A stretch of 64,000 nt of DNA. Origin: an uncultured Candidatus Binatia bacterium (GTDB lineage: Bacteria > Desulfobacterota > Binatia > UBA9968 > JAJDTQ01). The stretch covers positions 608,001 to 672,000 of the forward strand of contig OZ244070.1 in the NCBI GenBank assembly GCA_965215605.1, in the 5' to 3' direction. The notes under the pieces are model-generated. The model ran no database searches. It saw only the letters and a program-made list of their open reading frames with translations, and had not been told where the DNA came from. Position numbers and translations under genes: made by a program. Below are positions 17,201-24,345 of the stretch, piece by piece. Every line of letters starts with the position of its first letter. The first letter of the stretch is position 1.

Positions 17201-20200
17201 TCAACCGGTGTCCGGCCATAGGTACACCAAGCCGATGGGCTCGACTCGTTGTGCCCGCACTTCGTAGAACTCGCGGATCCGGGCCGGTTCGGTCTTCAGG
17301 TCCTTGTCGAACCGGTCCAGGCGCACGCGCCACGACGCGATGTCGGCCTGAAGCTGGCGCTTCTCGGCTTCACTGAACTCCAGCGTGAGCTGGGTTCCGC
17401 GGCCCTCGTGCTTGCCGAGTTCCGTTTCCACTCGCCGGCGCTGACGTTCCAGGGTCTCCCGAAGCTGCTGTTCCTCCCTTTCGCCACGTGCGCTAAGCCT
17501 GTCCCCAGCGCTCCGGGCCACACCTTCGGCGCGGCCTTCGAGTTGCGGCAGCAGGTCTTCGATATCCTGGGCGGCAATGTCGCGCAGCCTGCGGTGAATC
17601 GTCTCGGTCGGGCCTCGGGCGCTCTGCAAGGCCGTCTCCAGGCGTTCCAGCGTTCGTGCTTCCGCCTCCTCGGCATAGGCCCTGAGCGGCCCGTTGCGGC
17701 GCGACGGCTCGACCCAGCGGGCCGCCACCGGGATCAACTCCTCGTGCAGACGCTCGGCATGGCGCCCGAAGAGACACAGCCGCCCCAGCAGAATCACCCG
17801 AGGGACGGAGTCCGCGGCCTGCACGAGACAGGCGCGGGACAGGTCATGGTAGACGAACCCCTGGGAGCGAAAGCGCGCCAGCAGCCGTTGCGCCATGCGC
17901 TGCTCCAGGTGCAGGTGCACGGTGTCGTCGGTGAGCACGCCCGCGTCCTCGAACACCACCGGACGAATCGGCGCCTGCTGCCGCCACTCCGCGAGCTTCT
18001 GGTCGGTCTTGCGCGGCGCGCGCAACGTGTCCAATGTGGCGGTCCAGCTTGCATCCGCCCGCGCCTTGCCCGCCAGCGGCGGCAGCGTCCAGACCACGCC
18101 GCCCTCGTCGGTACGTGTTTCCTTCAACGGCTCCGCGCCCAGCATCTCCAGGGAACAGGACAGAGCGTTGCGAAAGGGTTGCGCGTCGAACTGCACCCAG
18201 CGGCGGGACTGGTCCAGCAGCCCGCGGCATCGTTCGATCTGCCCCTTCAAGTCGTCCTGCCGTTCGCGGGCGGCTTCCAGTTCCTCGGCCGCTACTCGTC
18301 GCCTTTCACGGTCGAGATCGGCCGCCTCGATGTCGCGCGCGATGCGCTCCGCATCTCCGTGACGGATGCCGTCACGGAGGCGACGCTCCACCTCGTCGTC
18401 GATCACCTTGGAGAGACTGCCGAGCTGCTGCCTGATGGTGGCGGTCTTTTGGACCAGCACTTCAAGCACCCGGTCCTCGGCGCGCTGCGGCAGCACGAAG
18501 TAGTGGCAGCGCACCTTGGGGGCCGGTTGCAGCTTGCGGTCGATGCGGCCGTTGCGCTGTTCGATGCGGCCAGGGTTCCAGGGCAGGTCGAAGTGGAACA
18601 GGTCGGTGCAGTGCGCCTGGAAGTTCAGCCCCTCGCGCGCCGCGTCCGTGGCAATGAGGATGCGCAACGGATCGTGGGCCGGATCGGCGTTGAAGCCGCG
18701 TTGAATCTCCTTGCGCCTGGCGCCGGCGGTCTGGCCGTCGATGGTCTCGATGCGCCCCTCGGCACGGTCGGTGCCGGCAATGGCCTGCTCCAGCATCTCG
18801 CGCAAGTACCGTTTCGTGCCGATCACGTTCTCGGTAAAGATCAGCACCCGCCGTTCGTTCCAGCGCGGCCGGTCGGGACAGAGGTTGTCGTAGATCCAGT
18901 CGATCAAGCGGCGGGTCTTGGCGTCGGGGCGGCCGCGGGCGCCGTTCGCGACTTCGTACATACGGGTCAGGAGGGCCTGCTCCTTGTCCCGGACCGCCTT
19001 TGCTCCTTCATCCGTGGGGGTGCCTTGCTCGGCAGTCTCGTTGATGGCCGTGATCTGCGCCTCTTCCTCGGCCGCATTCTCTTCGTCGGTCTGTTCCGCG
19101 CGTTCGTCGTCCGCGTCCGGCGGTTTTGCGAACAATTTCAAAAATGGTTCGGTCGCCACGGTCTCAACCCGTGTATCCGGGACGTTCTGACCGTCTTCAG
19201 TGTCTTGCGCCCAAAGTCGCTCAACCGTCCTGCGATGCCGCGCGAGCGAGATGGCGAACGCCTCGATGGATGACAGGAGTTTCTGTTGCAGCCCCACCAC
19301 GAGCAAACCGGCCATGGCCTGGGCTCGCGGCCTGGCACCGGCCAGCCGCTGTTCCCGCAAGCCGCGATATTCGTCAAGGAGTCTCGACAGAACAAGTTCC
19401 GGTGCGTCGTCCGGCAGGCCATCGATCCGAACCGGCTCCACGTGCCGTCTGGGGAAGCCGCCCTGTACCTCGCGAATGTCTTCCTTGATGCGCCGGACCA
19501 TGACCTCGTCGAGGTCCTTCTTTCCCCGCACCGGCACCCCGCGGGTAAAACGGTACGGATCAAGCAGCTCAAGCAGCGTGGAGAAGCTGTTGGAGTGGCC
19601 GTTGTGGGGAGTGGCGGACAGGAACAGGCGGTGCTCGAAGCGGCCGCCGAGATCACGGACCGCCCGGGTGAACTTCGACTCGATGCCGTAACGCCCACCA
19701 CTCGACGGTGCGGCATGGTGGGCCTCGTCGAGGATGAGCAGGCTGCCGGGCAGAAGAGCCCCGAGCCACTCGCGCATCGGATCGGCGTAGGCCGGGTCGA
19801 TGAGCAGGTTGTGGGACACCAGGAACCGGCTGTGGGTGCGCCAGGGATTCACGCCGAAGCCGCGGTCCTGTCGCACTTGCGTGAGGTAGGCGCGGTCGAG
19901 GATCGCGAACAGCAGGCCGAAACGCTCCTCCATCTCGGCCTTCCACTGCTCCAGCACCGAGGCGGGGGCGGCGACAACAATCGTCTTGACCTTCTTGCGC
20001 AGCAGCAACTCCCGCGCGATGAGGCCGGCCTCAATGGTCTTCCCAAGGCCGGTATCGTCCGCGATGAACAGGTTGACCCGCGGCAGTCGAAGCGCCTTGC
20101 GGAGCGGCTCCATCTGGTAGGCGTCGATCTTGATGCCGGCCCGGAACGGCGACTGGAAGAGATTCGGGTCGGTGGCGGTGATGCAATTCCAGCGCAGCGT

Positions 20201-20551
20201 GTGGAGGAACGCGCTGAAGTGGCGGGGCGCGTCGAACCCCTTGGCGCCGATGGCGTTCCACGCCTCCACCTCAAGGATGCGCCGGTCGATCTCGAATTCC
20301 CAGTAGACCTCCAGGGTCTGCCCCTGGGCGTCGTCGTCCGCGCAGGCGAGGCTGACGCGACCCGATTCCGGCTCGATCGCCTCCACGAGCCAGCGCCGCG
20401 AACGCACCTCGACGAGTTCCCCGACGTCGGGCAAGCGTTCGGGCAATAGTCGGGCGGCATCTTCCAAGGGCGTTCTCTCAAGTGGTGCGGGCAAGTCTGT
20501 AGTTGCTTTATCATATCCGCTGAAGTTCCGAGAATCGGCCAAATTGGCCAA
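17201..20551 (-). CDS. drmD: DISARM DrmD SNF2-like helicase (exact start uncertain)
   Basis: GELVEVRSRRW, QSPFRAGIKIDAYQMEPL..AL.LPRVNLFIADDTGLGKT, DEAHH, LSATPHNG, ATDAAREGLN, LPWNPGRIEQRNGRIDR, C-terminal VEPIGLVYLWP. Confidence 0.93.
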   Translation of the reverse strand: MANLADSRNFSGYDKATTDLPAPLERTPLEDAARLLPERLPDVGELVEVRSRRWLVEAIEPESGRVSLACADDDAQGQTLEVYWEFEIDRRILEVEAWNAIGAKGFDAPRHFSAFLHTLRWNCITATDPNLFQSPFRAGIKIDAYQMEPLRKALRLPRVNLFIADDTGLGKTIEAGLIARELLLRKKVKTIVVAAPASVLEQWKAEMEERFGLLFAILDRAYLTQVRQDRGFGVNPWRTHSRFLVSHNLLIDPAYADPMREWLGALLPGSLLILDEAHHAAPSSGGRYGIESKFTRAVRDLGGRFEHRLFLSATPHNGHSNSFSTLLELLDPYRFTRGVPVRGKKDLDEVMVRRIKEDIREVQGGFPRRHVEPVRIDGLPDDAPELVLSRLLDEYRGLREQRLAGARPRAQAMAGLLVVGLQQKLLSSIEAFAISLARHRRTVERLWAQDTEDGQNVPDTRVETVATEPFLKLFAKPPDADDERAEQTDEENAAEEEAQITAINETAEQGTPTDEGAKAVRDKEQALLTRMYEVANGARGRPDAKTRRLIDWIYDNLCPDRPRWNERRVLIFTENVIGTKRYLREMLEQAIAGTDRAEGRIETIDGQTAGARRKEIQRGFNADPAHDPLRILIATDAAREGLNFQAHCTDLFHFDLPWNPGRIEQRNGRIDRKLQPAPKVRCHYFVLPQRAEDRVLEVLVQKTATIRQQLGSLSKVIDDEVERRLRDGIRHGDAERIARDIEAADLDRERRRVAAEELEAARERQDDLKGQIERCRGLLDQSRRWVQFDAQPFRNALSCSLEMLGAEPLKETRTDEGGVVWTLPPLAGKARADASWTATLDTLRAPRKTDQKLAEWRQQAPIRPVVFEDAGVLTDDTVHLHLEQRMAQRLLARFRSQGFVYHDLSRACLVQAADSVPRVILLGRLCLFGRHAERLHEELIPVAARWVEPSRRNGPLRAYAEEAEARTLERLETALQSARGPTETIHRRLRDIAAQDIEDLLPQLEGRAEGVARSAGDRLSARGEREEQQLRETLERQRRRVETELGKHEGRGTQLTLEFSEAEKRQLQADIASWRVRLDRFDKDLKTEPARIREFYEVRAQRVEPIGLVYLWPDTG

Positions 20552-20588
20552 TTATTATGTTGTCAAACATAATGCCATTCTACATAAT
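20542..20588. promoter_or_regulatory. AT-rich divergent control region with palindromes
   Basis: AATTGGCCAATT (20542-20553), ATTATGTT-gtca-AACATAAT (20554-20573) and an extra ACATAAT half-site (20582-20588), between drmD and the ATPase gene. Confidence 0.6.
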
Positions 20589-20594
20589 AAGGAG

Positions 20595-21980
20595 ATGCAG
20601 TTCCTCGATCGCCGCCACGAGATGAAGCGGTTGGACAATGTGCTGACACGGACTGGGGCATTCGCCGTCATCTGGGGGCGCCGCAGGATCGGCAAGTCGC
20701 GCCTGCTCATTGAATGGTCGCGGCGCCACCGGGGCCTGTACACGGTCGCGGATCAGTCCGCCCCGGCGGTGCAGCGGCGCTACCTGGCGGAAGCGGTCGC
20801 TGAACGATTCCCCGGTTTTGCGGACGTCGAGTACCCGGACTGGCGCTCGTTTCTGACGCGGCTTTCTGCCGACGCCGACCGCGCCGGCTGGCAAGGTCCG
20901 TGGGTGCTGGACGAGCTTCCCTACCTCATCGACGCGGACCCCACTCTGGCCGGGGTCTTGCAGAACTGGCTGGACCGCCCGGAGCGGCGGTTGCGCCTGG
21001 TCGTGTGCGGGTCGAGTCAGCGCATGATGCACAGCTTGATACTCGATGCTGCCGCGCCGCTCTGCGGCCGGGCTGCCGAAGCCTTTGGGGTCCGCCCCCT
21101 GCCGGCGGGGCATCTCGCCGAGGCTTTCCCCTTCGACAAGCATCACGACCTGGTAACCGTCTATGCGCTGTGGGGAGGCATACCTCGTTACTGGGAGCTT
21201 GCCGAACCTTTCGGAAACGACATCGAAGCCGCGGTGGACACTCTGGTTCTCGACGCCGCGGGCCCCCTGCATGCAGAACCTGATCGGCTGTTGCGGGAGG
21301 AGACCCCTCCAGCTACGGCGTTGCGCCCCTTGCTGGACGTCATCGGCAACGGGGCGCACCGGGTCCGCGAGATCGCGGGCCGTCTTGGCAAGCCCGCCTC
21401 CAGCCTGTCGAGACCGCTGGCATCGCTCACGGAGATGGGGCTGCTGCGCCGCGAAACGCCGTTCGGAACCGACCCGAAGTCCGGCAAACGCAGCCTCTAC
21501 CGAATCGACGACCCCTTTCTGCGCCTGTGGTTTCGGGTGGTCGCGCCCCATCGAGCGGTGCTGGCCGCCACGCCCCCGGAGACCCGGCTCGCATACTGGC
21601 GGCGGCACCGGCGCGGCCTTGAGGCTCTTGCCTGGGAGGAACTGTGCCGCCGGGCGGTGCCCCTCCTTCACCGTTCCGATACGACCCTGGGCCGGCTGGG
21701 TCCGTGGGAGCCCGCGCAACGATACTGGCGGGGCGATGCGCCGGAACTCGACATCGTCGCGCGCTCGGTTGACGGGAAACGATTGCTGGTGGGCGAGGCC
21801 AAGTCGACGACGCGCCCGGCTACGGCCTCCGCCGCCTCGCGCGTTCACGCGGGTGACCTGGCCGGCGCTGAAGGTGCCGATGTTTGTCAAGCGCTGTTCG
21901 TTCCGGAGAGCGTGGCCGCGGACGCCCGGAACGGCATCCATATCGTCGATGCGCGGACGGTCATGAGCGTGCTGAGATAG
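20595..21980 (+). CDS. Archaeal-type ATPase with wHTH and C-terminal DUF234 PD-(D/E)xK-like domain
   Basis: FLDRRHE, WGRRRIGKS, VLDELPYL, VCGSS, WGGIPRY, HTH EIAGRLGKPASSLSRPL, ELDIVA...LLVGEAK. Confidence 0.85.
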   Translation: MQFLDRRHEMKRLDNVLTRTGAFAVIWGRRRIGKSRLLIEWSRRHRGLYTVADQSAPAVQRRYLAEAVAERFPGFADVEYPDWRSFLTRLSADADRAGWQGPWVLDELPYLIDADPTLAGVLQNWLDRPERRLRLVVCGSSQRMMHSLILDAAAPLCGRAAEAFGVRPLPAGHLAEAFPFDKHHDLVTVYALWGGIPRYWELAEPFGNDIEAAVDTLVLDAAGPLHAEPDRLLREETPPATALRPLLDVIGNGAHRVREIAGRLGKPASSLSRPLASLTEMGLLRRETPFGTDPKSGKRSLYRIDDPFLRLWFRVVAPHRAVLAATPPETRLAYWRRHRRGLEALAWEELCRRAVPLLHRSDTTLGRLGPWEPAQRYWRGDAPELDIVARSVDGKRLLVGEAKSTTRPATASAASRVHAGDLAGAEGADVCQALFVPESVAADARNGIHIVDARTVMSVLR

Positions 21981-22357: not shown

Positions 22358-22390
22358 CCACCCTATCGGAAGCAGCAGGAGGATACGCGC

Positions 22391-22777
22391 ATGTACGAGG
22401 TAAAGAACGCTATCGAGGAGGCCAAGGCCAACCCGGATATCCGCCATCTTTCGTTGTGGCGCACGGACCTGACCTATTTCTGGACCATCAACTGCGAAGA
22501 GAACATGCAGGACGACATGCACTATCACGAGAACGACGACCATATCTTCATGGTCCTCGAAGGAGAGTGCACGGTGCGGACGCCGGAGGACGAGTTCGTC
22601 CTGAAGCCCCACGACATGATCCTGCTGGAATCGGGCAAACCCTACCAACTCTGCAATACCGGCGAAGGTCGCCTGATCCTCTTCGGGGCGGGCAACTCGC
22701 AGGTCGACGGCAAGCCGCGCACACGGGTGCCGAAGCGGCCCAGCCACATACCGGTGAGGCAACCGATCATCGCGTAG
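22391..22777 (+). CDS. Cupin domain protein
   Basis: MHYHENDDHIFMVLEGE cupin motif 1; GGAGG RBS. Confidence 0.82.
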   Translation: MYEVKNAIEEAKANPDIRHLSLWRTDLTYFWTINCEENMQDDMHYHENDDHIFMVLEGECTVRTPEDEFVLKPHDMILLESGKPYQLCNTGEGRLILFGAGNSQVDGKPRTRVPKRPSHIPVRQPIIA

Positions 22778-22826
22778 AAATCTGTTCCGCGCCCACGCGG
22801 AAGCGCAGACTTCGAAGGAGGACGAC

Positions 22827-23390
22827 ATGTTGCGACTACTGTCTTACGGCCCTTGACCTTACGCCCACAGGACAAGGCTTGTCCTGGCGGAAAAAGACAT
22901 CCCTTACGACCTGGTGGAGTGCGATCTCCGGAACAAGTCCGAGGAGCTCGTCACCCTCAACCCCTACGGCAAAGTGCCGGTGCTGGTGGACGGGGACACG
23001 GTGATCTACGAATCCGCCGTCATCAACGAGTACCTGGATGAGAAATTTCCCGAGGTGCCGCTGATGCCCAAGGACCTGGCGCAGCGGGCGCAGGTGCGGA
23101 TCTGGATTGACTTCTGCAACACCCGGCTTCAAGCCGCCGCGGGCAACATCCGGCACGACCACGAGGTCGAGAAGAACAGGAAGCGCCTGGCGGAGCACCT
23201 AGCCACGCTGGACGAGCAGATGGCCGGCAAGGACTTCATCGTCGACGACTATTCGCTGGCGGACATCACCTATGTCCCGTTCTTCACCCGGGAAGACCAC
23301 TACAAGGTGTCCATCGGTGATGAGTTCCCCAACGTGAAGCGCTGGCGCGAGGGACTGCTGGAGCGGCCGAAGGTGAAGTCGACGCCGTAG
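22827..23390 (+). CDS. Glutathione S-transferase (omega/SspA-like), probable selenoprotein (UGA=Sec at codon 10)
   Basis: GGAGG RBS and ATG at 22827: MLRLLSYGP[TGA 22854-22856]PYAHRTRLVLAEKDIPY, in frame with LNPYGKVPVL...IYESAVINEYLDE; stem-loop immediately 3' of the TGA. Confidence 0.82.
22862..22889 (+). other. Putative bacterial SECIS element
   Basis: CGCC-cac-AGGACAA-ggc-TTGTCCT-GGCG hairpin; G-initial apical loop starts 20 nt after the UGA. Confidence 0.72.
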
Positions 23391-23415
23391 AGCGCTGACA
23401 TCGGTGCTGACGTCG

Positions 23416-24336
23416 ATGAAGGGCTCCCCCACACCACCCCGCCTGGATTCCCGCTTTCGCGGGAATGACGAAGGGGTACGCGGGGTTCACGGGGCGGGGC
23501 TGGGGAATGACCCTCGTGGGGACGCCGAACTGGCGCAAAAGGTGGCCGGGCTTCAGGCGCTGCTGAGAGAGATGGGCCAGGCGGTGGTCTGTTTCTCCGG
23601 CGGCGTCGACTCCGGCTACCTGCTGGCCGAGGCCGTGAACGCCCTCGGCGACAACGCCCTGGCGCTCACCGCGGTCTCCCCGAGCCTCGCGCCCGAGGAG
23701 GGCGCCGACGCCCGGAGCCTGGCCGAGAGCATCGGCGCCAGGCATCTGCTCATCGACACCTACGAGCTGGACGACCCGCGCTACGCCGCCAACCCCGCCA
23801 ACCGCTGCTACTTCTGCAAGACCGAGCTCTACGGCAAGGCCATCGAGGAGGCCGCCTCCCTGGGCATCGCCCACGTGCTGGACGGCTTCAACGTGGACGA
23901 CCGCGGCGACCACCGTCCCGGCCGCAAGGCCGCCCGCGAGCGTCGTGTCCGCTCTCCGCTGGACGAGCTGGGCTTCACCAAGGCCGATATCCGCGAAGCG
24001 GCCCGGCGCATGGGTCTCTCGGTGTGGGACAAACCCGCCCTGGCCTGCCTTTCCAGCCGCTTCCCCTACGGCACCGCCATCACTCCGGAAAAGCTCACCC
24101 AGGTGAACCGCTGCGAGCGCGTGCTGCGGGAGCTCGGCTTCCGCATCTACCGGGTCCGCTACCATGACGAGCTGGCACGCATCGAGACGGCCCCGGACGA
24201 GTTCGAGAACCTGTTCCGGCCGGGCGTCCGCGAGGAGATTCTGCGCCGCTTCAAGGACGCCGGCTTCACCTACGTCAGCATCGACCTGCAGGGCTACCGC
24301 ACGGGTTCCCTCAACGAAAACCTGAAGAAGCAGTAA
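23416..24336 (+). CDS. larE: ATP-dependent sulfur transferase LarE family (start uncertain)
   Basis: PP-loop FSGGVDS, NPANRCYFCK, DDRGDHRPG, WDKPALACLSSRFPYG, GYRTGSLN. Confidence 0.9.
   Translation: MKGSPTPPRLDSRFRGNDEGVRGVHGAGLGNDPRGDAELAQKVAGLQALLREMGQAVVCFSGGVDSGYLLAEAVNALGDNALALTAVSPSLAPEEGADARSLAESIGARHLLIDTYELDDPRYAANPANRCYFCKTELYGKAIEEAASLGIAHVLDGFNVDDRGDHRPGRKAARERRVRSPLDELGFTKADIREAARRMGLSVWDKPALACLSSRFPYGTAITPEKLTQVNRCERVLRELGFRIYRVRYHDELARIETAPDEFENLFRPGVREEILRRFKDAGFTYVSIDLQGYRTGSLNENLKKQ
23444..23469. repeat. REP/RPE-like palindromic repeat
   Basis: TGGATTCCCGCTTTCGCGGGAATGAC (reads LDSRFRGND, or VIPAKAGIQ on the other strand). Confidence 0.8.
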
Positions 24337-24345
24337 CGCGCCGCC

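What the first reader, a model, noticed from the sequence alone, without database searches (positions are those of the whole stretch)
22827..23390. Hidden selenoprotein: GST with UGA at the catalytic Cys and an adjacent SECIS-like hairpin
Seen: RBS GGAGG, ATG 22827, then MLRLLSYGP-TGA-PYAHRTRLVLAEK continuing in frame into a complete GST. The ORF track starts only at 22914 and loses the N-terminal thioredoxin strand and helix. A hairpin (AGGACAA-GGC-TTGTCCT, extended by CGCC/GGCG) has its G-first loop 20 nt after the UGA and uses two AGG Arg codons, which are unusual in this GC-rich context. Established: omega-type GSTs have a catalytic C-P-[YF]-A motif, and bacterial SECIS elements lie just 3' of the UGA. 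Inference: a U-P-Y-A selenoenzyme that annotation pipelines would truncate.
Basis: partly seen in the sequence, partly recalled or inferred. Interest (0 to 1): 0.8.

Follow-up and report, generated by a model that had tools for sequence, protein, structure and literature searches.

The report
Selenocysteine-containing glutathione transferase gene
This is a real gene for a glutathione-transferase-type enzyme whose catalytic cysteine is replaced by selenocysteine; gene callers cut it short, but this kind of selenoprotein is already known.

Summary
ATG 22827 follows GGAGG. An in-frame TGA lies at 22854-22856, and the frame runs to TAG 23388-23390, giving a 187-residue GST. An 8-bp hairpin with a GGC loop lies at 22868-22886.

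The interpretation also holds.
- The genome has selA, selB, a Sec-containing selD and tRNA-Sec(UCA).
- In the 123 genomes held for its order, 113 carry an orthologue. Of 150 listed matches, 147 have exactly one in-frame TGA, down to about 53% identity. The 138 I read have it at the same codon.
- The hairpin codons are almost frozen at synonymous sites.
- The only Cys orthologue is nested among Sec forms and has lost the hairpin through synonymous changes.
- The nearest non-Sec homologues mostly have C-P-[FY]-A at this column.
- The AlphaFold model puts residue 10 at the N-terminus of helix alpha-1, the catalytic position in Cys-type GSTs.
- Public protein entries for this family start after the UGA, at 158/159 aa.

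GST-like selenoproteins have been listed since 2005. This is therefore a new, order-wide lineage of a known kind in uncultured Binatia-like bacteria. Sec insertion and the enzyme's chemistry are inferred, not shown. No glutathione synthetase was found in this genome.

The parts
22817..22821 (+). Ribosome-binding site GGAGG, 5 nt before the start codon
   Evidence: AGGAGGA plus spacer plus ATG is kept in the same-genus loci printed.
22827..23390 (+). Full selenoprotein coding sequence: 187 codons including Sec10, stop TAG 23388-23390
   Evidence: translation. GST_N_2 79.6 bits, GST_N_3 73.7, GST_N 67.7, GST_C 46.0, all above cut-off; model pLDDT 95.7.
22854..22856 (+). In-frame UGA read as selenocysteine (residue 10), in U-P-Y-A
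   Evidence: The same codon is TGA in 29 of 30 loci (the other is a contig-end fragment), 31 of 31 and 78 of 80 (one TGT, one truncated). It aligns with Cys in P0040 and G463 and in 91 of 128 covering representatives.
22868..22886 (+). SECIS hairpin: 8-bp stem (C-AGGACAA / TTGTCCT-G) with apical loop GGC (22876-22878), 19 nt between UGA and loop
   Evidence: -9.2 kcal/mol; 97.4% of 736 cells paired, with compensatory changes at two pairs; synonymous entropy 0-0.58 bits in the six hairpin codons; lost in the Cys form; all model constraints met.
22830..23045 (+). Thioredoxin-like N-terminal GST domain (residues 2-73: beta1, alpha1, beta2, alpha2, beta3, beta4, alpha3). K49-V50-P51 and E62-S63 are invariant.
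   Evidence: secondary structure; invariant columns.
23076..23378 (+). All-helical C-terminal GST domain (residues 84-184)
22914..23390 (+). Truncated 158-aa ORF (GTG start) that standard gene calling reports in place of the full gene
   Evidence: The database homologues are 158/159 aa, and P0001 starts at this position.
22391..22777 (+). Upstream same-strand cupin gene (128 aa). This neighbour is kept only within the genus.
   Evidence: Cupin_2, 38 bits; 16 loci at 83-98% identity.
23446..23467 (.). REP-like palindrome in the spacer after the GST stop. It is a genome-wide repeat and a possible transcript end.
   Evidence: 26 forward and 24 reverse matches in the genome, control 0; very high contig depth at 23436-23501.
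23404..24336 (+). Downstream same-strand LarE-type ATP-dependent sulfur transferase. The family match begins at residue 46 of this ORF, so the true start is probably near 23539.
   Evidence: TIGR00268, 320.4 bits, cut-off 150; 18 loci, all genus level. table 5: 23389-23538 is replaced in relatives.

Best explanation
Window 22827-23390 (+) encodes a 187-residue selenoprotein of the cytosolic GST fold.

How it is made (inferred). Ribosomes start at ATG 22827. At UGA 22854-22856 the hairpin 22868-22886, 12 nt downstream, recruits SelB carrying Sec-tRNA(Sec). Selenocysteine is inserted as residue 10 and translation runs on to TAG 23388.

Where the Sec sits. Sec10 lies in U-P-Y-A, between strand beta1 and helix alpha1 of the thioredoxin-like domain. 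This is the position of the catalytic Cys of Cys-type GSTs (C-P-[FY]-A).

What it most likely does (inferred). The enzyme works like an Omega/Grx-type thiol transferase or reductase. The selenolate attacks a glutathionylated or oxidised substrate, forms an enzyme Se-S-glutathione intermediate, and a second thiol resolves it.

What is shown: gene anatomy, conservation of UGA and hairpin, RNA-level selection, Sec/Cys pairing, presence of the Sec machinery, and the fold.

What is inferred: actual Sec insertion, the thiol cosubstrate and the substrate.
For: Machinery in the same genome:
- selA scores 580 bits, selB 380 bits and selD 374 bits with its own in-frame TGA. All are above cut-off and adjacent on contig C1.
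- tRNA-Sec scores 73 bits, with anticodon TCA.
- selD has the same hairpin design: an 8-bp stem and a GUC triloop 33 nt after its UGA.

Conservation:
- 61 of 61 relatives match at E <= 1e-20. Their best full-length orthologue rows carry one TGA at 53-97% identity.
- In the whole order, 113 of 123 genomes match at E <= 1e-55. Of 150 listed matches, 147 have exactly one in-frame TGA. The other three are one Cys form and two contig-end fragments.
- In the loci read, the TGA is at the same codon.

RNA constraint:
- In 107 distinct segments, the codon entropy at the six hairpin codons is 0.27, 0.52, 0, 0, 0 and 0.58 bits. Other Leu, Val, Pro and Ala codons nearby give 1.3-2.2 bits.
- The hairpin is built with rare codons.
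- Compensatory changes are seen: A-U to G-C twice and to U-A once, and C-G to U-A twice.
- The hairpin meets all four published bSECIS constraints.

Natural control:
- The Cys form G463/L168 is sister to a Sec form with 100/98 support and nested in the Sec clade.
- It keeps the peptide HRTRIVL but uses AGA, CGA and ATC in place of AGG, AGG and ATT. Its hairpin region folds at 0 kcal/mol against -7.3 for the Sec sister.

Sec/Cys pairing:
- P0040 has C-P-Y-A.
- Of the 150 best representatives among 1.84 billion proteins, the column is Cys in 91, Ser in 35, other in 2 and missing in 22.

Fold:
- The model has pLDDT 95.7, with residue 10 just before helix 11-22.
- Foldseek gives TM 0.87-0.92 to glutathione-bound SspA-like proteins and Tau GSTs.
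- K-V-P and E-S are invariant. That these are G-site motifs is recalled, not from a call.

TGA is otherwise a normal stop. It ends 8 of the 15 longest ORFs, and selA and selB have no internal stop.
Against: - Nothing here shows selenium in the protein.
- Covariation is thin because the stem hardly varies. Five of 8 pairs never vary, and only 5 of 736 cells change on both sides. The RNA argument rests mainly on synonymous-site freezing and on a single Cys-form control.
- In its 51-nt context the fold is not exceptional, with z -1.8.
- Six of 92 distinct sequences have a U-U mismatch next to the loop. Five of 92 have a mismatch at the base pair 16-32.
- The cosubstrate is uncertain. No glutathione synthetase was found in this 97%-complete genome with TIGR01380 or PF02955. 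PF03917 also found nothing, but its control was silent. No PF04262 ligase was found.
- On the other side, two GCS2-type ligases and a glutathione-reductase-like gene below cut-off are present.
- The neighbours, cupin and LarE, are kept only within the genus and give no functional link.
Confidence: 0.93

Rival explanations
1. The TGA is a nonsense mutation or an assembly error. The gene is either dead or its real product is the 158-aa ORF from GTG 22914.
For: Standard ORF calling gives 22914-23390. Public entries have that length.
Against: The TGA sits at the same codon in 138 of 139 loci read. It occurs in 147 of 150 listed matches across 113 genomes of three families, at 53-97% protein identity. 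The nine codons before it, the RBS and the ATG are conserved. The truncated product would lack strand beta1, the catalytic residue and helix alpha1.
Confidence: 0.01
2. The UGA is read through without selenocysteine. This could be near-cognate Trp or Cys insertion, or a reassigned TGA. The hairpin would then only promote read-through.
For: One source translated a homologue with W at this column (P0026). No direct evidence for selenium exists here.
Against: TGA ends 8 of the 15 longest ORFs in the window. selA and selB have no internal stops, so the code is standard. The complete Sec machinery is present. The hairpin matches the bacterial SECIS model and resembles the one in the genome's own selD. 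The column is the redox-active Cys in homologues, the classic Sec/Cys pattern.
Confidence: 0.03
3. It is a genuine selenoprotein but not a glutathione-dependent enzyme. It could be an SspA-like regulator bound to RNA polymerase, or a redox protein that uses another thiol such as gamma-glutamylcysteine, or in some paralogues an internal C-x-x-U pair.
For: The best solved relatives are named stringent starvation protein A. No glutathione synthetase was found. Many orthologues in family f3 carry S-C-H-T-U, a CxxU arrangement.
Against: The SspA equivalog model scores 105.8 bits against a cut-off of 314. The top structural hits are glutathione-bound. The K-V-P and E-S columns are invariant. The window's own protein has no Cys at -3 (S-Y-G-P-U). 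In 15-17 distant loci the gene follows an Opp/Dpp-type peptide ABC importer, which fits an imported peptide thiol.
Confidence: 0.15

Closest known systems
GST-like selenoprotein family (Sargasso Sea 2005, PMC1088965; GOS 2008, PMC2398784; reviews PMC9312934 and PMC13188914)
   Same: It is a GST-superfamily protein (COG0625 / PF13409) with one Sec encoded by UGA, a downstream bacterial SECIS and widespread Cys homologues. It was found only by bioinformatics and its function is untested.
   Different: Those sequences came from marine metagenomes: 4 in the first study and 12 Sec forms in the second. The passages I read give no Sec position or motif. I could not fetch the representative accessions (PPR62222.1, MEK9676863.1), so orthology with this clade is untested. 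This clade is confined, among the genomes searched, to one order of uncultured Binatia-like bacteria, where it is nearly universal.
Omega-class GST (human GSTO1, PDB 1eem; catalytic Cys32 in C-P-F-A, recalled)
   Same: The catalytic residue lies in X-P-[FY]-A at the N-terminus of alpha1. The match of query 2-184 to chain 24-213 (E 9.9e-21) puts residue 10 opposite chain residue 32 by offset, assuming no gap in the first nine aligned residues. The expected chemistry is thiol transfer or reduction through a mixed (seleno)disulfide.
   Different: Sec replaces Cys. The roughly 20-residue N-terminal extension is absent. Similarity is weaker than to SspA-like and Tau proteins. It is bacterial and 187 aa long.
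SspA-like glutathione-binding proteins (Burkholderia 4qq7 and 6v91; Neisseria RegF 4hoj)
   Same: These are the best sequence and fold matches: E 1e-31, 32% identity, TM 0.87. Their C-P-F-S aligns with U-P-Y-A, and they were crystallised with glutathione.
   Different: They have Cys, not Sec. The NCBIfam SspA equivalog is not reached (105.8 against 314 bits).
Cys orthologue of the same clade (P0040 cluster; G463:C222 = L168)
   Same: It is 57% identical to the window protein and 93-94% identical to a Sec sister. It has the same length and the same C/U-P-Y-A-H-R-T-R context.
   Different: It has TGT in place of TGA. The hairpin is dissolved by three synonymous codon changes. It is the only such case among 150 listed matches.
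Bacterial SECIS consensus model (bSECISearch model as given in PMC13188914, Fig. 2 legend)
   Same: The loop is 3 nt (allowed 3-9). The stem is 8 bp (allowed 4-16). GG occupies the first two loop positions. Spacing from UGA to loop is 19 nt (allowed 16-37). Free energy is -9.2 kcal/mol (limit -7.5).
   Different: bSECISearch itself was not run. SelB binding is untested.

Membership tests
Bacterial selenoprotein gene | In-frame UGA aligned with Cys in homologues (Sec/Cys pair) | tested here: met
   P0040 and G463 have Cys at the column. Of the 128 best representatives that cover the column, 91 have Cys.
Bacterial selenoprotein gene | bSECIS just 3' of the UGA (loop 3-9 nt, stem 4-16 bp, G in the first two loop positions, 16-37 nt spacing, MFE <= -7.5) | tested here: met
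   GGC loop, 8 bp, 19 nt spacing, -9.2 kcal/mol. Conserved in 92 distinct sequences.
Bacterial selenoprotein gene | Genome encodes SelA, SelB, SelD and tRNA-Sec | tested here: met
   All are above the curated cut-offs.
Bacterial selenoprotein gene | UGA conserved among orthologues under purifying selection | tested here: met
   147 of 150 listed matches in 113 of 123 genomes. Without the four unpublished genomes: 142 of 145 matches in 109 of 119 genomes.
Bacterial selenoprotein gene | Selenium shown in the polypeptide | not testable with these tools
   Needs 75Se labelling or mass spectrometry.
Cytosolic GST superfamily | Thioredoxin-like N-domain plus helical C-domain | tested here: met
   Pfam GST_N_2, GST_N_3, GST_N and GST_C are above cut-off. 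Model pLDDT is 95.7. TM is 0.87-0.92 to solved GSTs.
Cytosolic GST superfamily | G-site residues (cis-Pro loop, Glu-Ser at the start of alpha3; motif recalled) | tested here: met
   K49, V50, P51, E62 and S63 are invariant in 38 sequences. Binding itself was not tested.
Omega-class GST | Catalytic Cys in C-P-[FY]-A at the N-terminus of alpha1 | tested here: met
   U-P-Y-A with Sec in place of Cys. The offset to chain residue 32 of 1eem follows.
Omega-class GST | N-terminal extension of about 20 residues before beta1 (recalled) | tested here: not met
   Beta1 starts at residue 2. Query residue 2 aligns with chain residue 24.
Omega-class GST | Closest similarity to Omega members | tested here: not met
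   Omega entries score E about 1e-20. They rank below SspA-like (1e-31) and Tau (1e-28 to 1e-24) entries.
Stringent starvation protein A (NF007016) | Score above the equivalog cut-off | tested here: not met
   105.8 bits against a cut-off of 314.
GST-like selenoprotein family of the literature | GST domain (COG0625 / PF13409) with one Sec | tested here: met
   together with the tables read.
GST-like selenoprotein family of the literature | Orthology or same Sec position as the published representatives | not tested
   The accessions could not be fetched. The passages read give no motif ('-' in the motif column).

The most novel reading that the evidence does not exclude
This would be an independent, ancient recruitment of Sec into a GST, not orthologous to the marine GST-like selenoproteins.

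It has been kept as a near-universal core selenoenzyme of a whole order of uncultured Binatia-like bacteria. It occurs in 113 of 123 genomes, often in two paralogous copies, beside a second U-P-W-C Sec-GST family.

It would work in cells that appear unable to make glutathione themselves. In that case it runs on imported or host glutathione, or on gamma-glutamylcysteine. In some relatives the gene sits behind a peptide ABC importer.
Probability: 0.25. Interest if true: 0.5.

Novelty: new member of a known kind. Interest (0 to 1): 0.35.

Why it matters
**Annotation.** Practically every public protein entry of this family is an N-terminally truncated 158/159-aa fragment. It lacks the catalytic residue, and no NCBIfam model reaches its cut-off on the full protein. 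A dedicated selenoprotein model would repair more than a hundred genomes.

**Selenium biology.** The clade offers a clean natural experiment. One very recent Sec-to-Cys replacement is accompanied by decay of the SECIS. The clade also gives a well-defined Sec/Cys enzyme pair for asking what selenium buys a GST.

**Limits.** It does not change what is known about how Sec is decoded, and the kind of protein was already listed.

Tried and rejected
- **Expression.** One RNA run (X22) was laid. Its contigs touch only 22416-22646 (the cupin gene) and short repeat pieces, and none lies on the GST gene. This says nothing either way.
- **Independent reads over the TGA.** Contigs of X5 and X7 reach 22874, only 18 nt beyond the TGA, which is less than the 31 needed to count as bridging. 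No difference at 22854-22856 appears among the 40 listed rows, but 180 rows were not shown. The X1 contig that spans the whole gene without a difference may come from the source sample.
- **Gene neighbourhood as a clue to function.** Cupin and LarE are kept only within the genus. The recurrent neighbours of distant paralogues are Opp/Dpp-type ABC importer genes, NMT1-like, amidohydrolase and thioesterase genes. These are leads only.
- **Promoter and terminator scan.** It found no promoter-like site and one minus-strand terminator-like site inside the gene, no more than chance gives.
- **Phylum-wide search.** It found the orthologue only in the order: 2 of 401 genomes, both of the order. This is a sample, so the gene is 'not found in those searched'.
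- **Calls that were not available.** The search of earlier findings and the listing of cluster members were closed, so I could not see how sources name or number the entries.
- **Literature searches that found nothing.** Binatia + selenocysteine, Binatota + selenoprotein, and selenoproteome + sponge + symbiont + SECIS each returned 0 papers.
- **Not done.** Supplements of the selenoprotein papers were not opened and may hold the published GST-like sequences. bSECISearch was not available; I applied its published constraints by hand.

Full report
**1. The observation**

The sequence is as described.
- GGAGG lies at 22817-22821 and ATG at 22827.
- Nine sense codons (MLRLLSYGP) follow, then TGA at 22854-22856.
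- The same frame continues as PYAHRTRLVLAEK... to TAG 23388-23390, 187 codons in all.
- Mechanical ORF listing gives only 22914-23390 (GTG start, 158 aa).

The hairpin is C-AGGACAA / GGC / TTGTCCT-G at 22868-22886. Alone it folds at -9.2 kcal/mol, z -3.2. In a 51-nt context it gives -14.4 kcal/mol, but only z -1.8.

It is built with rare codons. AGG is 3.7% of Arg codons and ACA is 7.7% of Thr codons in the 15 longest ORFs of the window.

Two of its pairs are fixed by Ala codons. One holds in 79 of 92 distinct sequences and one in 48 of 92.

**2. The protein**

Read through, the product matches GST_N_2 (79.6 bits), GST_N_3, GST_N and GST_C, all above their cut-offs. No NCBIfam model reaches its cut-off; the best is SspA at 105.8 bits against 314.

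An AlphaFold model built on 38 orthologues has pLDDT 95.7. Residue 10 sits between strand 2-6 and helix 11-22. This is the N-terminus of alpha1 in the thioredoxin-like domain.

Foldseek and sequence searches agree on the nearest solved structures.
- Best are the glutathione-bound SspA-like proteins 4qq7, 6v91 and 4hoj, at 32% identity and TM about 0.87. Their C-P-F-S aligns with U-P-Y-A.
- Tau GSTs come next.
- Omega GSTs score E about 1e-20. By offset, residue 10 falls on chain residue 32 of 1eem. That this is the active-site Cys is recalled, not from a call.

K49-V50-P51 and E62-S63 are invariant in the family.

**3. The genome decodes Sec**

- selA, selB and selD lie side by side on contig C1 at about 1.984-1.989 Mb, all above cut-off.
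- selD is itself a selenoprotein, KAAG-U-AAKLG.
- tRNA-Sec is present with anticodon TCA.
- The selD UGA is followed, 33 nt later, by a GUC triloop on an 8-bp stem. This is the same design as in the GST gene.
- TGA is otherwise a stop. It ends 8 of the 15 longest ORFs.

**4. Conservation**

Record titles of the near relatives name uncultured 'Candidatus Binatia', 'Deltaproteobacteria' or 'Thermodesulfobacteriota' MAGs.

- Among 61 relatives, all have a match. The best full-length orthologue rows carry exactly one in-frame TGA at 53-97% identity.
- In the same genus, 26 of 27 genomes have the orthologue. G016 lacks it, and in G013 it is split over two contig ends.
- Over all 123 genomes held for the order, 113 match at E <= 1e-55.
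- Of the 150 listed matches, 147 have one TGA. The three without are one full-length Cys form (G463:C222) and two contig-end fragments.
- Four of these genomes (G489, G505, G474, G472) are flagged unpublished. Without them the counts are 109 of 119 genomes and 142 of 145 matches.
- In a sample of 401 genomes of the phylum, only 2 matched at E <= 1e-50, and both belong to the order.

Reading the DNA shows the TGA at the same codon.
- 29 of 30 loci (the other is a fragment).
- 31 of 31 loci.
- 78 of 80 loci (one TGT, one truncated).

These three sets overlap in genomes. Together they make 139 loci and 92 distinct 51-nt segments.

**5. The hairpin is under RNA-level selection**

On the 92 distinct segments, the 8-bp helix pairs in 97.4% of 736 cells. 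Slid registers give 25-51%.
- Five pairs never vary.
- Pair 21-27 is A-U in 83 sequences, G-C in 2, U-A in 1 and unpaired in 6.
- Pair 15-33 is C-G in 76, U-G in 6, U-A in 2 and unpaired in 8.

So true compensatory events are few. The stronger evidence is the silence at synonymous sites. In 107 distinct segments, the six hairpin codons (Arg, Thr, Arg, Leu/Ile, Val, Leu) have codon entropies of 0.27, 0.52, 0, 0, 0 and 0.58 bits. Other four- and six-fold codons in the first 50 codons have 1.3-2.2 bits.

The hairpin meets each constraint of the published bacterial SECIS model (Fig. 2 legend of PMC13188914, passage read).
- Loop of 3 nt.
- Stem of 8 bp.
- GG at the first loop positions.
- 19 nt between UGA and loop.
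- -9.2 kcal/mol.

**6. A natural control**

The single Cys orthologue (G463 = L168) is 93-94% identical to P0040, as is a Sec form in the same genus (G464).

In a maximum-likelihood tree it is sister to that Sec form with 100/98 support. It lies nested within a 38-row clade (100/98) that is separate from the Ser-type and U-P-W-C paralogues. I included all 47 rows. The root was drawn at the midpoint, and both paralogue groups fall outside the clade.

The Cys form keeps the peptide HRTRIVL but uses AGA, CGA and ATC where the Sec forms use AGG, AGG and ATT. The stretch no longer folds: 0 kcal/mol against -7.3 for the Sec sister. This is one case, not a series.

**7. Sec/Cys pairing beyond the order**

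A profile search of 1.84 billion representatives gave 207 proteins at E <= 1e-30. In the best 150, the Sec column is as follows.
- Cys in 91. The commonest motifs are CPFA in 37 and CPYA in 16.
- Ser in 35.
- Another residue in 2.
- Missing in 22 N-terminally short entries.

**8. Annotation**

Among the 120 best database proteins, 118 cover at most 94% of the query, and most are 158 or 159 aa. Of the nine I read, seven start after the Sec column. P0040 is the Cys form. P0026 has W at the column.

**9. What is inferred, and what speaks against it**

Sec insertion itself and the chemistry are inferred. The proposed chemistry is thiol transfer or reduction through an Se-S-glutathione intermediate, as in Cys-type GSTs.

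The cosubstrate is open.
- No glutathione synthetase was found with TIGR01380 or PF02955. PF03917 also found nothing, but its control was silent.
- No PF04262 ligase was found.
- Two GCS2 ligases and a glutathione-reductase-like gene (458 bits, below its 556 cut-off) are present.

The genome is 97% complete, so absence is not proven.

**10. Comparison with what is known**

GST-like selenoproteins are listed in four papers.
- The Sargasso Sea study: 4 sequences (tables read).
- The GOS study: 12 Sec against 1,036 Cys sequences (table read).
- The 2022 and 2026 reviews (tables and passages read).

None of the passages I read gives the Sec position, and I could not fetch their sequences. Full-text searches for Binatia or Binatota together with selenocysteine or selenoprotein found no paper.

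**Verdict**

This is a genuine, mis-annotated selenoprotein gene. It is a new lineage of a known kind and is of moderate interest.

Noticed in passing
window 23446-23467 (spacer 23391-23538): The REP-like palindrome GATTCCCGC-TTTC-GCGGGAATG lies 56 nt after the GST stop. With up to 1 mismatch it has 26 forward and 24 reverse matches in the genome, and 0 for the reversed control. Contig depth is enormous at 23436-23501 in three metagenome runs. In related strains 23389-23538 is replaced by 93 other letters.
   Followed up: partly
window 23404-24336 (+): The downstream gene is a LarE-type ATP-dependent sacrificial sulfur transferase (TIGR00268, 320 bits, cut-off 150). The family match starts at ORF residue 46, so the real start is probably near 23539. 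Together with the upstream cupin gene at 22391-22777 it flanks the GST only within the genus.
   Followed up: partly
L081 (G053:C51:4044-5031) and L082 (G036:C221:3021-4002): A second, distinct Sec-GST family occurs in the same order. It reads MIQMYHWPT-TGA-PWCQKVR (U-P-W-C) and has its own hairpin, GTGCG-GAT-CGCAC, whose G-first loop begins 21 nt after the UGA. It shares 31-32% identity with the window protein and forms a separate clade.
   Followed up: partly
L054, L058, L063, L064, L067-L070, L075-L078 and others (family f3): Many orthologues have Cys three residues before the Sec (S-C-H-T-U, S-C-R-T-U), a CxxU arrangement. The window's protein lacks it (S-Y-G-P-U). This could allow an internal selenenylsulfide.
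   Followed up: no
L140-L170 (for example L147:1-2239, L162:1991-2893, L164:704-2008): In 15-17 distant loci the Sec-GST gene lies just downstream, on the same strand, of Opp/Dpp-type ABC importer genes (SBP_bac_5, BPD_transp_1, OppC_N). This may be a peptide or glutathione uptake link.
   Followed up: partly
own genome, contig C1:1984272-1988572 (outside the window): selD, selB and selA are adjacent on the minus strand. selD is itself a selenoprotein (KAAG-U-AAKLG) with an 8-bp stem and GUC-triloop SECIS.
   Followed up: yes
own genome: No glutathione synthetase was found (TIGR01380, PF02955; PF03917 with a silent control) and no PF04262 ligase. This is despite many GST paralogues (18 first-look candidates), two GCS2-type ligases and a glutathione-reductase-like gene.
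   Followed up: partly
own genome C1:316135-316725 (L083) and relatives L084-L089: A Ser-type paralogue (S-P-N-C-Q, about 38% identity) is present in nearly every genome of the order.
   Followed up: no
window 22380-24340 in runs X5 and X7: Contigs of close relatives, with roughly 5-30 differences per 300 nt, occur in two runs labelled 'sponge metagenome' by the tool, from two studies.
   Followed up: no
window 17201-21980: Upstream lie an SNF2/helicase-family gene (17201-20551, minus strand) and an ATPase_2 plus HTH gene (20544-21980, plus strand). The latter is shared with only 5-6 same-genus loci.
   Followed up: no
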